This document shows positions 1-17,371 of a stretch of 64,000 bases of DNA, one piece after another (within the stretch, counting starts at the first letter, position 1; the number at the start of each line of letters is the position of its first letter). Origin of the DNA: Escherichia coli (GTDB lineage Bacteria > Pseudomonadota > Gammaproteobacteria > Enterobacterales > Enterobacteriaceae); the NCBI RefSeq assembly GCF_050920415.1, contig NZ_CP169309.1, one strand, 5' to 3'. The notes beneath the pieces were generated by a model that saw only the letters and a program-made list of their open reading frames with translations, did not search any database and was not told the DNA's origin. Both the position numbers and the translations under genes were made by a program.

Positions 1-3946
<3,946 letters not shown>

Positions 3947-13569: not shown

Positions 13570-15831
13570 TTACGCCGGGATTTTGTCAATCTTAGGAATG
13601 CGTGACCACACGCGGTGTGCTGCCATCAGCGTTAACAGTTCATCCATAAAACTACCATCGGCGCTGTCAGCTTCCACAATCCCTTCTTCACCCTGGTCAG
13701 CGACCTTGATTGTTGCTTTAAACTTGCGCGCGTCTCCTGCCAGCGCAATCGGTTTAAGGTGTTTGTAGGCTTCCATCAGGTAGTAGTTGGCATCGCCGTT
13801 GTCAGCGATATCCGCGATATTGCCGCAAGGGACAATAACCGCATCGACCGTTAGCGAAGGCGCTCCGGCAAATGTAGCGGCTATAGGCAGCACCGTACCG
13901 TCATCCGCAGTCACTTCACCCATTCGGGAGTAGAGCAGTTTGGCATGAACGCCTTTGGCCTTCAGCGCCTTGAGAATGGCCAGAAGGTCTGCCGATCTCA
14001 CTTCATCATTAAGCAAAATCGCTACCACGCGACCTTTTACATCACCGTCAGGAATGGCGTACAGACTTAAGGATGGATCCTTTTTCAGACCGTTGACGTC
14101 CGGAGGCGGGGTGATATTCAGCTGGTCGTCAGTCAGTTCGATACCGAGATTTTTCGCCACCGCCTGGGCCAGAGTGAGATCAATATGCGCCAGCTGGTCA
14201 ACAACGCGCTCACGAATATACGGACGAACTACTTTGCTTAACTCAAAGCTGAAACCATCGACAACATGGCGCTGCTCGAACGGCGTCTGACTTAACCAGA
14301 ACAGGCGCGGATGAGAATAATATTCGCCAAATGACGGGCTACGTTCGCGCACCTTATTGCCTTCCACGCGCTCCTGATATGACTCAAAACCGCCACGTTT
14401 TGGCCCTGGTGGTGTTTCGCGCGGCCAGTTATCGTTGATCGAGTTGGGCTCGTAATTCGCCGGGTTAGTGTCGATACCCATGCGGTGCATGCCATCACGC
14501 TGGAAGTTGTGGTATGGGCAGGTCGGGCGGTTAATCGGAATTTCATGGAAATTGGGTCCGCCAAGACGACTGATTTGTGTATCGGTATAGGAGAACAAAC
14601 GTCCCTGTAACAGGGGATCGTTGGTGAAGTCCAGACCAGGAACAATATGGCCTGGATGGAAAGCTGCTTGTTCGTTTTCGGCAAAGAAGTTATCCGGATT
14701 ACGATTAAGCACCATTTTGCCAACACGCTGAACGGGCACCAGTTCTTCCGGGATAAGTTTAGTTGGATCAAGAAGGTCGAAGTCGAACTTAAATTCATCT
14801 TCTTCAGGAATCAACTGGAAGCCCAGTTCGTATTCCGGGAAATCACCCGCTTCAATCGCTTCCCACAACTCGCGGCGGTGGAAGTCCGGGTCACGTCCGG
14901 TTAGTTTTTGTGCTTCATCCCAAACCAGTGAGGCTTTACCGGCCAATGGTTTCCAGTGGAAACGTACGAACGTCGCTTTCCCTTCGGCATTAATCAGGCG
15001 GAAGGTGTGAATACCGAAGCCTTCCATGGTGCGATAGCTGCGCGGGATACCACGATCCGACATGGCCCACATCACGTTATGCAGCGTTTCCGGTTGCAGG
15101 GAAACATAATCCCAGAAGGTGTCGTGAGCACTTTGCCCTTGCGGAATTGCCCAATGCGGTTCTGGTTTTACCGCATGAACAAAATCAGGGAATTTATGCG
15201 CATCCTGGATAAAGAAGATTGGCGTGTTATTGCCAACAAGGTCAAAAATACCCTCTTCGGTATAGAACTTGGTGGCAAAGCCACGGATATCACGCACGGT
15301 ATCGGCAGAGCCAGCACCACCCTGAACGGTAGAGAAACGTACAAATACTGGGGTGATTTTGTTAGGGTCTGACAGAAAATCCGCTTTGGTGATATCGCTT
15401 AAGCTTTTATATGGCTGGAAATAACCGTGAGCGGCTGAGCCGCGCGCATGAACAATTCGTTCCGGGATGCGCTCATGGTCAAAGTGAGTGATTTTCTCGC
15501 GCAGAATAAAATCTTCCAGCAGTGTTGGGCCACGGCTACCGGCGCGTAGGGAGTTTTGATCATCGGCGATGCGTACACCCTGGTTGGTGGTAAGTGCATA
15601 ATTTTCACTACCTTTGCGAACGTCTTCCAGAGAATTGATTTTTTCGTTACGCGTATCAGGGGCTTTCAGACTCCCTGGCGCGGTTGGCTGCGCTCCCGGT
15701 GGCGTCGGTTCAGCCGCTGGACGATGAGATCCGTCCTCAGGTGCCAGTGAGTCCATCCCCGGTTTCGCTTCGCTGGAATCGTGTAGTGGTGACTGGTGCT
15801 GATGTGGGTTCTTTTCGTTATGTTGCGACAT
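13570..15831 (-). CDS. katE: catalase HPII (large-subunit monofunctional catalase)
   Basis: 753-aa ORF; catalase core motifs ([20 protein letters not shown], heme-proximal region RLFSYTDTQ). Confidence 0.96.
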
Positions 15832-16034
15832 TGAACTCGTCTCCTTAATGTATTACTGAAAGGGCCGCTGTTTTGGTCAAAAAACTCTCTAACTATAGAC
15901 CACCAGCCAGATCCCGCTTCGGAGACTATTCTGGAAACGGTGTTATGAAATACACGCAAAGCGGGACGTACAGGGGCTAAATCGGCTAAACTACAGTTTT
16001 TCTGATTTTTAATATGCGTTTAGTGAAGCCAGTA

Positions 16035-16277
16035 ATGAAGAAACCGCTCCGTCAGCAAAACCGCCAGATTATTAGCTATGTCCCACGCACGGAACCCGCG
16101 CCGCCAGAACATGCGATAAAGATGGATTCGTTTCGTGATGTCTGGATGCTGCGTGGCAAATATGTTGCGTTTGTACTGATGGGAGAGTCATTTCTGCGCT
16201 CACCGGCGTTTACTGTGCCTGAATCCGCCCAGCGTTGGGCAAATCAGATCCGCCAGGAAGGGGAAGTGACTGAGTAA
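16035..16277 (+). CDS. cedA: cell-division modulator CedA
   Basis: Tracked ORF 16014-16277; 80-aa form starting MKKPLRQQNRQ... at 16035 preferred (start uncertain by 7 codons). Confidence 0.85.
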   Translation: MKKPLRQQNRQIISYVPRTEPAPPEHAIKMDSFRDVWMLRGKYVAFVLMGESFLRSPAFTVPESAQRWANQIRQEGEVTE

Positions 16278-16564
16278 GGATTACGTACCTCCCGGTTTGG
16301 CCGGGAGTTACATGGCCTGAAATTCTGTATTTCGATGCAACATTCATTCAAATCACCTGTAACAAAAAGCTGCCTTTAACGATCTATTGCTATAAATAAG
16401 TGATCTTTTTTCTTTAATTGTTTATTTATTTTATAATAGTTAAGTTTAGCTAATCAGAATGAGCTATTTTTGATAGTTCATCCTGTGGCGTTGCCATTAA
16501 ACTTATATTGTAAATTGCTTAGATTCAAATGAGATAATAATTTTGTTGAAATACGAGGTGGGAG

Positions 16565-17368
16565 ATGTTTTCTACAAACTTAATACAGAGTGATTATGGT
16601 AATTTAAATATTAAAAACCTTGCCTTTAACTCTTTTAAAGAAAGGCTGCAGTCTACCATGACAGCACTCACTTTCTTCATATCAACGGGTCAATGTGCCT
16701 GCGATGAAATAGCAGAATCAAACTTCAATTATATGATTACCTATATGTCTAACATTAACTATGATGCCTCAAAGCCAGGAGCGCCAGCACTTAGTTTTGA
16801 TACATATCTGCAGGACAATGTTAAATATAGAGTGATAATTAATAATCTTTATGGTAGTGAAATTAGGATAAGAGGTATTAATGAGAATTTTGTTGGGATG
16901 GATTTTACCTGTGAATTCCGACCAGAAAAAATGACCAATTTGATCAATATAAAAAACAGGTTGGTTATTCAGTATTTAAGAACGATATACTATGAACAAA
17001 ATTATATACATCCTGTTGGGAGCATTTTTGCTGCGATTCAAAAAAATGAGAGTCTCCTAAAGTTTCCTTCGGTAATATCAATGCTTAATGTCAATCTTCT
17101 TTTTAATCCACTGAATCTTCCGGGAATGGGAAGTGGTGTGCTTGAAGAGATTATGAGCATTTCAGATAGTTCACTTAGAAAACGTCTTGGGTATGAGGTT
17201 TTAAGCTTCTCGCTACAAGCACATTCATTGAGTCAGGAATGTATTGATAAGTTAGCCATTTTTTTCGCTGACGATCTGTTTAAATATGAGTCAGTATGCA
17301 TCGCCGCGATGGAACATTTAAAAAGTAAGGCAACGGCCCCTATACAAAACGGACCGTTGCCAGCATAA
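16565..17368 (+). CDS. ydjO: uncharacterized protein YdjO (AT-rich orphan gene)
   Basis: 267-aa ORF in conspicuously AT-rich DNA with about 285-bp AT-rich upstream region; no domain recognisable by eye. Confidence 0.75.
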   Translation: MFSTNLIQSDYGNLNIKNLAFNSFKERLQSTMTALTFFISTGQCACDEIAESNFNYMITYMSNINYDASKPGAPALSFDTYLQDNVKYRVIINNLYGSEIRIRGINENFVGMDFTCEFRPEKMTNLINIKNRLVIQYLRTIYYEQNYIHPVGSIFAAIQKNESLLKFPSVISMLNVNLLFNPLNLPGMGSGVLEEIMSISDSSLRKRLGYEVLSFSLQAHSLSQECIDKLAIFFADDLFKYESVCIAAMEHLKSKATAPIQNGPLPA

Positions 17369-17371
17369 GAA

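What the first reader, a model, noticed from the sequence alone, without database searches (positions are those of the whole stretch)
16278..17371. AT-rich orphan gene ydjO with long AT-rich 5' region, wedged tail-to-tail against tcyP
The ydjO ORF and the ~285 bp upstream (16278-16564) are strikingly AT-rich (runs such as ttgtttatttattttataatagttaagtttagc) relative to the flanking cedA and tcyP. I recognise no domain in the 267-aa product, which is Asn/Ile/Tyr-rich. The composition suggests a xenogeneic, probably H-NS-silenced gene.
Basis: partly seen in the sequence, partly recalled or inferred. Interest (0 to 1): 0.3.

Follow-up and report, generated by a model that had tools for sequence, protein, structure and literature searches.

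The report
AT-rich orphan gene ydjO island
This is the known E. coli gene ydjO, a real but dispensable protein gene of unknown function on an old 1-kb AT-rich insert between cedA and tcyP that published data show is bound by the silencing protein H-NS, so it is an ordinary case with a few new details.

Summary
Window 16278-17371 has 34.6% GC against 49.2% for the window, the lowest 1.1-kb stretch in 64 kb. It holds an intact 267-codon ORF (ydjO, b1730) ending 3 nt from the tcyP stop.

In every other enterobacterial genus sampled, and in 1,124 of 5,426 complete E. coli genomes, cedA and tcyP are separated only by about 45-110 nt, which in every spacer read carries a shared two-way terminator. 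So the 1.05-kb segment is an insert. Published ChIP and SELEX tables list the ydjO-cedA spacer as an H-NS-bound "promoter island".

New here:
- ydjO is not E. coli/Shigella-specific. E. albertii has a 257-aa orthologue at the same site (34% identity).
- The frame is under purifying selection (dN/dS about 0.19; wrong-frame controls about 1).
- The gene is dispensable: absent from 21% of genomes, and a nonsense allele is in at least another 17%.
- A replacement tcyP terminator hairpin lies antisense in the last codons of ydjO.

No homologue, domain, confident fold, donor or mobile-element signature was found, so the biochemical function stays unknown. Known gene, known kind, low interest.

The parts
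16014..16277 (+). cedA (context). Its last five codons (16260-16274) differ by haplotype: EGEVTE in island carriers and ENEVEE at empty sites.
16289..16307 (+). GC-rich hairpin just after the cedA stop (CCUCCCGG-UUU-GGCCGGGAG), with no U-run. It stands where the ancestral two-way terminator was and is probably a weak cedA terminator.
   Evidence: Fold of the 61-nt stretch 16270-16330 is -22 kcal/mol, z = -3.0. The ancestral terminator is seen in other genera. The hairpin is retained in the L007 deletion scar.
16340..16564 (+). AT-rich core of the ydjO upstream region (GC 0.28). It corresponds approximately (my own coordinate conversion) to the published K-12 'promoter island' 1811053_320, which is listed as H-NS-bound.
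   Evidence: TATAAT-like hexamers run at 45/kb in the upstream 287 nt (16278-16564) against 8.9/kb in the whole window. PMC3661553 Table 1.
16455..16478 (+). 24-nt block CAGAATGAGCTATTTTTGATAGTT about 100 nt upstream of the start codon. The 20 nt ATGAGCTATTTTTGATAGTT are identical in E. albertii although the rest of the spacer barely aligns. Candidate cis-regulatory site or -35 element (TTGATA).
   Evidence: Alignment A4
16514..16540 (+). Proximal sigma-70-type promoter position. K-12 reads ATGACT-16-AATAAT (from SELEX). The window allele reads ATTGCT ... GATAATAAT.
   Evidence: PMC3946193; sequence. The strict consensus scan did not report it.
16555..16564 (+). Strong Shine-Dalgarno sequence (GAGGTGGGAG) directly before the ATG.
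   Evidence: E. albertii has AAGGA at the equivalent place.
16565..17368 (+). ydjO coding sequence, 267 aa, intact in this window. Soluble acidic protein without known homologues outside Escherichia.
   Evidence: dN/dS is 0.19 with wrong-frame controls of 0.9-1.2. E. albertii orthologue.
16919..16921 (+). Codon 119 (CGA here). It is TGA in a widespread pseudogene allele.
   Evidence: L063 sequence. The exact 61-mer occurs in 932 complete genomes. PGAP note 'frameshifted; internal stop'.
17040..17046 (+). A7 run in codons 159-161. It is A8 (a frameshift) in pseudogene alleles.
   Evidence: The exact 68-mer with A8 occurs in 645 genomes.
16379..16385 (+). First copy of the short direct repeat (G/A)ACGATCT. 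The second copy is at 17270-17277. Recombination between the two explains the 194-nt scar in Escherichia sp. MOD1-EC7003.
17316..17361 (-). Intrinsic-terminator-like hairpin for tcyP (arms 17329-17339 and 17351-17361, followed on the minus strand by CCUUACUUUUUAAA). It is embedded antisense in the last ~15 codons of ydjO.
   Evidence: -22.7 kcal/mol on the minus strand against -17.1 on the plus strand. Terminator scan hit. Inverted repeat I6. An equivalent hairpin is present in E. albertii and is kept in the L007 scar.
17372..18763 (-). tcyP (ydjN), the cystine/sulfocysteine symporter gene, convergent neighbour (context).

Best explanation
The interval is ydjO (b1730) plus its upstream region.

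- **An insert.** Together they form a ~1.05-kb AT-rich insert. In an ancestral Escherichia lineage it replaced the short spacer and shared two-way terminator between the convergent genes cedA and tcyP.
- **A real gene.** It encodes a ~30-kDa soluble protein found only in the genus Escherichia. The protein evolves fast but under purifying selection.
- **Dispensable.** The insert segregates as present or absent, and the gene has decayed to a pseudogene in large E. coli lineages.
- **Probably silenced.** The AT-rich upstream core is a published H-NS-bound 'promoter island'. Many overlapping promoter-like sites load RNA polymerase, but H-NS most likely keeps productive ydjO transcription low under ordinary growth. 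This step is inferred from published binding data and was not tested here.
- **Own terminators.** The insert carries a hairpin after cedA and a stronger hairpin plus U-tract for tcyP. The tcyP one lies antisense inside the last ~15 codons of ydjO, so tcyP read-through can produce antisense ydjO RNA.

The biochemical activity of the protein is unknown.
For: **Composition:**

**Insert polarity:**
- Of the 54 cedA loci fetched from other species, tcyP could be placed next to cedA in 52. In 45 of these the two stops are 45-110 nt apart, with no ydjO.
- In each of the 19 empty-site spacers printed, the gap is an A-run, GC hairpin, T-run terminator.
- The same arrangement spans the junction in 1,124 of 5,426 complete E. 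coli genomes. 4,264 genomes carry the island.

**Age and spread within the genus:**
- E. albertii has a 257-aa orthologue between cedA and tcyP with BLASTP E = 8e-43 and 34% identity. Its island has GC 0.34 and the same cedA tail, EGEVAE.
- Escherichia sp. MOD1-EC7003 has a deletion scar that keeps the last 32 codons.

**Coding constraint:**
- Window against K-12: dN/dS 0.19, p = 4e-7 against neutrality.
- Window against the diverged allele: 0.18, p = 7e-11.
- The same alignment read in the two wrong frames gives 1.2 and 0.9.
- Both species have a good Shine-Dalgarno sequence.

**Dispensability:**
- The nonsense allele R119* occurs as an exact 61-mer in 932 genomes, and the A8 frameshift in 645.
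- PGAP marks one such gene (strain E2865) as a pseudogene.
- IS insertions and an IS1-mediated deletion are seen, and IS hits are reported in PMC10044804 and PMC3486847.

**H-NS and promoter island:** PMC3661553 Table 1, PMC3946193 and PMC5493296. -10-like hexamers are five-fold enriched upstream.

**Terminators:**

**Antisense read-through hint:** ydjO and ydjN/tcyP fall together with the CysB regulon in a TruSeq RNA-seq dataset, a protocol that as far as I know was unstranded at the time; the paper does not mention strand-specificity.
Against: - H-NS occupancy and silencing were not tested here. One of the ChIP datasets summarised in PMC3661553 (Grainger) did not score this island. I found no paper that shows ydjO derepressed in an hns mutant.
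- No donor, vector, terminal repeat or integrase was found, so 'horizontally acquired' rests on synteny alone.
- GC3 is still 0.32 in both species despite saturated synonymous divergence. That fits either maintained AT-richness or drift to mutational equilibrium, rather than a fresh foreign signature.
- The strict promoter scan found no strong promoter upstream.
- The structure models were weak (pLDDT 43.8 and 65.3) and gave no significant fold match.
Confidence: 0.75

Rival explanations
1. The ORF is not a functional gene. It is a chance or decaying reading frame in an AT-rich spacer, annotated only because it is long.
For: No homologues or domains were found. The gene is absent from 21% of genomes and carries a nonsense codon or frameshift in at least 17%. 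IS insertions are tolerated. Frame-shifted and then frame-restored variants exist (P0005 and P0009).
Against: In-frame dN/dS is 0.18-0.21 with p down to 7e-11, while the wrong frames give about 1. An AT-rich sequence should be dense in stop codons, yet the ORF stays open for 257-267 codons in two species that share only 34% identity. Both species have a strong Shine-Dalgarno sequence.
Confidence: 0.07
2. The insert arrived, or arose, as non-coding AT-rich DNA, and the gene was born de novo within Escherichia rather than imported as a ready-made gene.
For: There is no homologue anywhere outside the genus among about 15 billion proteins. There is no mobile-element signature and no plasmid or phage copy. 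Evolution is very fast and the structure predictions have low confidence.
Against: A 260-codon open frame in 35% GC DNA is improbable by chance. The protein already has a consistently predicted alpha/beta plus helical architecture in both species. The source of the 1-kb DNA would still be unexplained. The evidence does not exclude this rival, and it overlaps with the main explanation.
Confidence: 0.13
3. The selected function of the island is in cis. It acts as an H-NS-coated insulator and terminator module between cedA and tcyP, with convergent or antisense transcription coupling ydjO RNA to the CysB-controlled tcyP. The protein is secondary.
For: The insert replaced the shared terminator and supplies two hairpins. 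Both are the only parts kept in the MOD1-EC7003 scar. The last 200 nt of ydjO are nearly invariant among E. coli alleles. ydjO and ydjN co-vary in TruSeq (probably unstranded) RNA-seq.
Against: Purifying selection acts on the protein frame across the 5' 167 codons, far from the terminator. Genomes with the empty site manage with a 46-nt terminator, so the 1-kb island is not needed for termination.
Confidence: 0.1
4. The island is ancestral native DNA whose AT-richness reflects mutational drift, and the empty sites are secondary deletions.
For: GC3 is the same (0.32) in E. coli and E. albertii after saturating divergence. Real deletions of the island do occur (L007 scar and the IS1 deletion).
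Against: Empty sites are not scars. They carry a spacer and terminator homologous to those of Citrobacter, Salmonella, Enterobacter and others, and the ancestral-type cedA tail ENEVEE. None of 48 loci from genera other than Escherichia holds any ydjO-like sequence.
Confidence: 0.03

Closest known systems
H-NS xenogeneic silencing of AT-rich acquired genes in Enterobacteriaceae
   Same: GC is about 15 points below the genome. The segment is an insert relative to ancestral synteny with a patchy distribution. H-NS binding is reported in K-12 ChIP datasets. It is a frequent IS target.
   Different: It is a single-gene 1-kb island with no integrase, tRNA site, repeats or known donor. It is old, shared with E. 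albertii at 34% identity, yet it has not drifted towards host GC. Silencing of ydjO itself is not shown.
'Promoter islands' of E. coli K-12 (PMC3661553)
   Same: The ydjO/cedA spacer is one of the 78 listed islands (1811053_320), is flagged as H-NS-bound and is predicted foreign by two methods. The window shows five-fold enrichment of -10-like hexamers.
   Different: The window carries an allele of ydjO and its upstream spacer only 94% identical to K-12's. The original PlatProm scoring could not be rerun. The simple consensus scan found no strong promoter.
YahL and YjfZ, the other 'E. coli/Shigella conserved signature proteins' (PMC11057252)
   Same: All are about 265-270 aa, uncharacterised and taxonomically restricted, and all are used as PCR markers.
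   Different: They share no sequence similarity with YdjO (BLASTP E of 1.9-85). YdjO has an E. albertii orthologue and is missing or broken in at least 38% of complete E. coli genomes, so it is neither species-specific nor universally conserved.
Bidirectional intrinsic terminators between convergent genes
   Same: The ancestral cedA-tcyP spacer is a textbook example: A-run, GC hairpin, T-run. The island supplies a functional-looking tcyP terminator.
   Different: In island carriers the shared terminator is split into two separate hairpins 1 kb apart. One lacks a U-run, and the other is embedded antisense in a coding sequence.
Hsp70/DnaK substrate-binding domain architecture (beta domain followed by helical lid)
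   Same: The best Foldseek PDB hits of the E. albertii model are DnaK substrate-binding domains (E 0.008-0.1). Both have a beta-rich part followed by a helical bundle.

Membership tests
H-NS-silenced xenogeneic island | GC content well below the host average | tested here: met
   0.346 against 0.492, z = -3.5. GC3 is 0.33 against 0.59 in tcyP.
H-NS-silenced xenogeneic island | Insertion relative to ancestral gene order, with patchy distribution | tested here: met
   The site is empty, with the ancestral terminator where the spacer was read, in other genera and in 1,124 of 5,426 E. coli genomes.
H-NS-silenced xenogeneic island | H-NS occupancy in vivo | not testable with these tools
   Literature only. 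Bound in the Kahramanoglou and Oshima datasets as summarised in PMC3661553. An HNS mark is listed in PMC3946193.
H-NS-silenced xenogeneic island | Derepression of the gene when hns (and stpA) is deleted | not tested
   None of the ydjO-mentioning E. coli papers I read (9 of the 21 in the library) reports it.
H-NS-silenced xenogeneic island | Identifiable donor or mobile vector | tested here: not met
   No terminal repeats. The only plasmid-collection hits are 4.8-4.9 Mb records, evidently chromosomes. No phage hit. No homologue outside Escherichia.
Promoter island (PMC3661553) | A stretch of at least 300 bp with an unusually high density of promoter-like sites | tested here: inconclusive
   It is listed for K-12. 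Here -10-like hexamers are five-fold enriched, but the strict two-hexamer scan found none upstream. PlatProm was not available.
[quoted passage not shown] | No homologue outside E. coli/Shigella | tested here: not met
   E. albertii protein P0073, 257 aa, syntenic, BLASTP E = 8e-43. A scar is present in Escherichia sp. MOD1-EC7003.
[quoted passage not shown] | Present in all or nearly all members of the taxon | tested here: not met
   Absent from 1,124 of 5,426 complete genomes. The nonsense allele is in at least 932 more.
Genus-restricted orphan (taxonomically restricted gene) | A protein-coding gene under selection with no detectable homologue outside the clade | tested here: met
   dN/dS is 0.19 with frame controls. 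Searches of 1.84 billion representatives and 5.8 billion clusters returned only Escherichia sequences.
Intrinsic terminator (for tcyP) | A stable GC-rich hairpin followed by a U-tract just downstream of the stop codon, on the transcribed strand | tested here: met
   -22.7 kcal/mol with a U-rich tail on the minus strand, 13 nt after the tcyP stop, and weaker on the plus strand. It is conserved in E. albertii and in the scar. Termination activity itself was not tested.
DUF2686 (YjfZ) / YahL | Significant sequence similarity | tested here: not met
   Pfam scan empty. Pairwise BLASTP E > 1.
Anti-phage defence protein or prophage gene | A match to PADLOC or PHROG profiles, or presence in phage genomes | tested here: not met

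The most novel reading that the evidence does not exclude
YdjO may be a conflict-type accessory protein, acting for example in host, phage or competitor interaction, or as a secreted substrate. On this reading, balancing selection has kept it polymorphic across the genus Escherichia since before E. coli and E. albertii split.

What fits this reading:
- Presence or absence of the insert cuts across species.
- Allele lineages are deeply diverged. One E. coli allele carries an imported ~600-nt segment with dS about 0.9.
- Protein divergence is about 50 times that of its neighbour TcyP.
- AT-richness persists and has not drifted towards host GC.

From memory, and untested: its distribution looks like that reported for the ETT2 type III secretion cluster (present in most E. 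coli and in E. albertii, absent from phylogroup B2). The Ser/Thr/Asn/Ile-rich N-terminus would also be compatible with a secretion signal.
Probability: 0.1. Interest if true: 0.55.

Novelty: already known. Interest (0 to 1): 0.22.

Why it matters
ydjO is one of the uncharacterised 'y-genes' of E. coli, and this work gives no new mechanism for it. The practical points are modest.

1. The published use of ydjO as an E. coli/Shigella-specific, universally conserved PCR marker is weakened. E. albertii has a diverged orthologue, although at about 52% nucleotide identity it is unlikely to cross-amplify. More importantly, about a fifth of complete E. coli genomes lack the gene altogether.
2. The locus is a clean small example of how an AT-rich insert can replace a shared terminator and bring or evolve its own, with one embedded antisense in a coding sequence.
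3. The island has stayed at 34% GC in two species despite saturated synonymous divergence. This is a useful caution against reading low GC as evidence of recent transfer.

Tried and rejected
- **Distant homologue P0033** (27% identity, E = 6e-36). Rejected. Its sequence is ydjO with essentially every A read as G (I>V, N>G, K>G/R, Y>C), which is a chemical-conversion or assembly artefact.
- **Paralogy with YahL or YjfZ**, which have similar length and the same 'signature protein' status. No similarity.
- **Profile and structure-sequence searches** (Pfam, NCBIfam, PADLOC, PHROGs, PDB). Nothing was significant. The best were a 15-bit NCBIfam hit against a cut-off of 450 and an 18-bit hit to a designed helical repeat.
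- **AlphaFold2 on the E. coli protein** with a 5-sequence alignment: pLDDT 43.8, unusable.
- **AlphaFold2 on the E. albertii protein**: pLDDT 65.3, pTM 0.66.
  - Foldseek against PDB and against viral models found nothing at E <= 0.001.
  - The afdb50 library was unavailable.
- **Mobile-element signatures.** No flanking direct or inverted repeats, no true plasmid copies and no phage copies.
- **Rfam scan** of 15800-17600: only a chance hit.
- **H-NS high-affinity motif** TCGATAAATT with up to 2 mismatches: not enriched in the island (1.8/kb against 1.6/kb).
- **Literature search for 'b1730'**: the 20 of 43 papers listed were all irrelevant.
- **LTEE hydrogen paper** (PMC10997342). It rests on two SNPs in two isolates, and I do not regard it as evidence of function.
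- **ExPEC serum paper.** I first took it to show induction. It in fact lists ydjO as down-regulated together with ydjN.
Full report
**1. What is in the sequence**

The window is Escherichia coli chromosome. The local gene order is:
- katE, 13570-15831, minus strand
- cedA, 16014-16277, plus strand
- a 287-nt spacer
- a 267-codon ORF, 16565-17368, plus strand
- tcyP (ydjN), 17372-18763, minus strand

RefSeq annotation of matching genomes names the ORF ydjO. The ydjO and tcyP stop codons are 3 nt apart.

- The interval 16278-17371 has GC 0.346, its upstream core 0.28 and the ORF 0.352. The neighbours have 0.52-0.53 and the whole window 0.492.
- It is the lowest 1,094-nt window of the 64 kb (z = -3.5).
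- Third-codon-position GC is 0.33 against 0.59 in tcyP.
- The protein is rich in Asn, Ile and Tyr, acidic (pI 5.7), about 30 kDa, and has no membrane-spanning segment.

**2. It is an insert, and the empty site is ancestral**

I fetched 54 cedA loci from one genome per species. tcyP could be placed next to cedA in 52 of them.
- In 45 of these, spanning Citrobacter, Salmonella, Enterobacter, Kluyvera, Leclercia, Atlantibacter and other genera, the two stops are 45-110 nt apart. No non-Escherichia locus holds any ydjO-like sequence.
- In each of the 19 empty-site spacers I printed, the gap is a classical two-way intrinsic terminator: A-run, GC hairpin, T-run.
- The same arrangement occurs in E. 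whittamii, in Escherichia sp. E1V33, in two genomes labelled E. coli, and in many E. coli isolates. There the spacer is 46 nt, AAAAACACCTGTCGGGATGACAGGCGTTT....

Among 5,426 complete E. coli genomes:
- 4,264 carry the island.
- 1,124 have the uninterrupted empty junction.
- The few others show IS insertions or IS-mediated deletions.

Island carriers also have a different cedA C-terminus, EGEVTE. Empty-site genomes and other genera have ENEVEE-like tails. I found no terminal repeats, target duplication, integrase, plasmid copy or phage copy. The way the insert arrived and its donor are therefore unknown.

**3. It is older and wider than 'E. coli-specific'**

E. albertii carries a 257-aa ORF at exactly the same position, 1 nt from the tcyP stop.
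- It shares 34% identity with YdjO over 236 residues (BLASTP E = 8e-43).
- Its island has GC 0.34, it has a Shine-Dalgarno sequence, and cedA has the EGEVAE tail.

Escherichia sp. MOD1-EC7003 has a 194-nt scar. Everything between two copies of the short repeat GACGATCT (window 16379-16385 and 17270-17277) is gone. What remains is the cedA-side hairpin, the last 32 codons of ydjO and the tcyP-side hairpin.

This contradicts the published statement that YdjO is exclusive to E. coli/Shigella (PMC11057252).

Outside Escherichia nothing was found:
- phmmer against 1.84 billion representatives
- three searches of 5.8 billion clusters

The single apparent distant hit (P0033) is an artefact in which essentially every A of ydjO is read as G.

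**4. It is a real protein gene, under purifying selection, but dispensable**

| Comparison | dN/dS | p against neutrality |
|---|---|---|
| Window allele against K-12 allele | 0.19 (dS 0.16) | 4e-7 |
| Window against the deeply diverged 5' 167 codons of allele P0004 | 0.18 (dS 0.96) | 7e-11 |
| Same alignment, wrong frame +1 | 1.2 | not significant |
| Same alignment, wrong frame +2 | 0.9 | not significant |

Between E. coli and E. albertii, dN is 0.62 and dS about 1.9 (saturated). The flanking tcyP has dN 0.011 and dS 0.72. The protein therefore changes about 50 times faster than its neighbour.

The gene is often lost.
- A CGA>TGA nonsense codon at position 119 is present as an exact 61-mer in 932 complete genomes.
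- An A7>A8 frameshift at codons 159-161 is present as an exact 68-mer in 645 genomes.
- PGAP flags the gene in one such genome (strain E2865) as 'frameshifted; internal stop'.
- IS10 and other IS insertions are reported in PMC10044804 and PMC3486847.

At most about 61% of complete E. coli genomes can therefore have an intact gene.

One allele (P0004, locus L065) is a mosaic. About 600 nt, from -85 to codon 167, differ by 23% from the window allele, while both sides are identical to it. A segment was therefore imported from a distant lineage by homologous recombination.

**5. Regulation: what is shown and what is inferred**

Published:
- The ydjO/cedA spacer is one of 78 'promoter islands' of K-12 (entry 1811053_320).
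- It was predicted foreign by two of the three gene-level methods tabulated and scored as H-NS-bound in the Kahramanoglou and Oshima datasets (PMC3661553 Table 1).
- Genomic SELEX found a sigma-70 promoter, ATGACT-16-AATAAT, with an H-NS mark in the same spacer (PMC3946193).
- An RpoS-holoenzyme peak was found at the ydjO 5' end (PMC5493296).

Here:
- -10-like hexamers are five-fold enriched in the upstream 287 nt.
- A strict two-hexamer scan found no strong promoter there.
- The Lang-type H-NS motif is not enriched.
- A 20-nt block, ATGAGCTATTTTTGATAGTT (16459-16478), about 100 nt upstream of the ATG, is identical in E. albertii although the rest of the spacer hardly aligns. I propose it as a regulatory site.

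That H-NS actually silences ydjO is inference from the binding data.

**6. Terminators**

The insert removed the shared terminator.
- After cedA there is now a GC hairpin without a U-run (core 16289-16307; the 61-nt stretch 16270-16330 folds at -22 kcal/mol, z = -3.0).
- Thirteen nucleotides after the tcyP stop, on the tcyP strand, lies an 11-bp hairpin followed by CCUUACUUUUUAAA (17316-17361; -22.7 kcal/mol).
- It is weaker on the ydjO strand (-17.1 kcal/mol) because it uses G-U pairs.
- An equivalent hairpin plus U-rich tail is present in E. albertii, and the E. coli hairpin is retained in the scar.

The conserved C-terminal residues of YdjO (ATA...G..P) thus overlap a probable tcyP terminator.

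In an ExPEC RNA-seq study, ydjO and ydjN/tcyP fall together with the CysB regulon in serum (PMC4145685). The library was made with the TruSeq mRNA protocol, which as far as I know was unstranded at the time; the paper does not mention strand-specificity. This would be expected if some 'ydjO' reads are antisense read-through from tcyP. That reading is inference only.

**7. Protein function**

- AlphaFold2 with the shallow alignment gave pLDDT 43.8 for the E. coli protein.
- For the E. albertii protein it gave pLDDT 65.3 and pTM 0.66.
- Both models show an N-terminal helix, a beta-rich middle and a C-terminal helical bundle.
- Foldseek against PDB returned DnaK substrate-binding domains at E about 0.01 but with TM 0.15-0.19.
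- The viral library gave nothing significant.

I draw no fold assignment from this. Function remains unknown. The LTEE hydrogen-production association (PMC10997342) rests on two SNPs and is not persuasive.

**8. Verdict**

This is a known y-gene on a known H-NS-bound AT-rich island. The added value is descriptive:
- genus-level rather than species-level restriction
- ancestral empty site with terminator replacement
- demonstrable purifying selection alongside frequent loss
- a mosaic allele

GC3 is still 0.32 in both species after saturating divergence. Low GC here therefore cannot be read as recent import. From general knowledge, it may be maintained, for example for H-NS binding, or it may reflect the AT-biased mutational equilibrium of a weakly expressed gene. 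Interest is low.

Noticed in passing
protein P0033: The 1.84-billion-protein representative library holds a 299-aa 'protein' that is ydjO with essentially every A read as G (I>V, N>G, Y>C). It is presumably assembled from a base-conversion sequencing run. It scores E = 6e-36 and could be mistaken for a distant homologue.
   Followed up: yes
window 13570-15831 (katE): katE of the window strain is unusually diverged from K-12 at synonymous sites (dS 0.32, 93.9% nt identity). The adjacent cedA has dS 0.05 and tcyP 0.10. This suggests a recombined or ancient katE haplotype.
   Followed up: no
L061 and L062 (E. albertii), 2566-3838: E. albertii has no katE at this locus. In E. coli katE lies between chbG and cedA. 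In E. albertii the ydjC-family gene in chbG's position runs almost directly into cedA.
   Followed up: no
L065 2915-3500 (E. coli allele P0004): This ydjO allele is a mosaic. About 600 nt, from -85 to codon 167, are 23% diverged (dS about 0.9) between flanks identical to the window allele. The segment was imported from an unsampled distant lineage.
   Followed up: partly
window 16995-17046; proteins P0005 and P0009: Some alleles carry a ~20-residue frame-shifted stretch (EKKIIYILPGAFLLRFKKNE in place of EQNYIHPVGSIFAAIQKNE) bounded by two A-runs. This is a compensated pair of indels that restores the frame.
   Followed up: partly
window 24500-26700: A second extended low-GC stretch (0.35-0.40) largely coincides with a 632-codon ORF on the minus strand (24695-26593). 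Shorter low-GC patches lie near 3.7, 37.4, 42.1 and 50.7 kb.
   Followed up: no
PLSDB records NZ_CP141089.1, NZ_CP134663.1, NZ_OL790696.1: The only 'plasmid' hits to ydjO are records of 4.8-4.9 Mb. They are evidently E. coli chromosomes filed in the plasmid collection.
   Followed up: no
window 16014 against 16035 (cedA start): Gene callers disagree on the cedA start. It is 87 aa in RefSeq and in this window's longest ORF, but 80 aa in some Logan calls.
   Followed up: no
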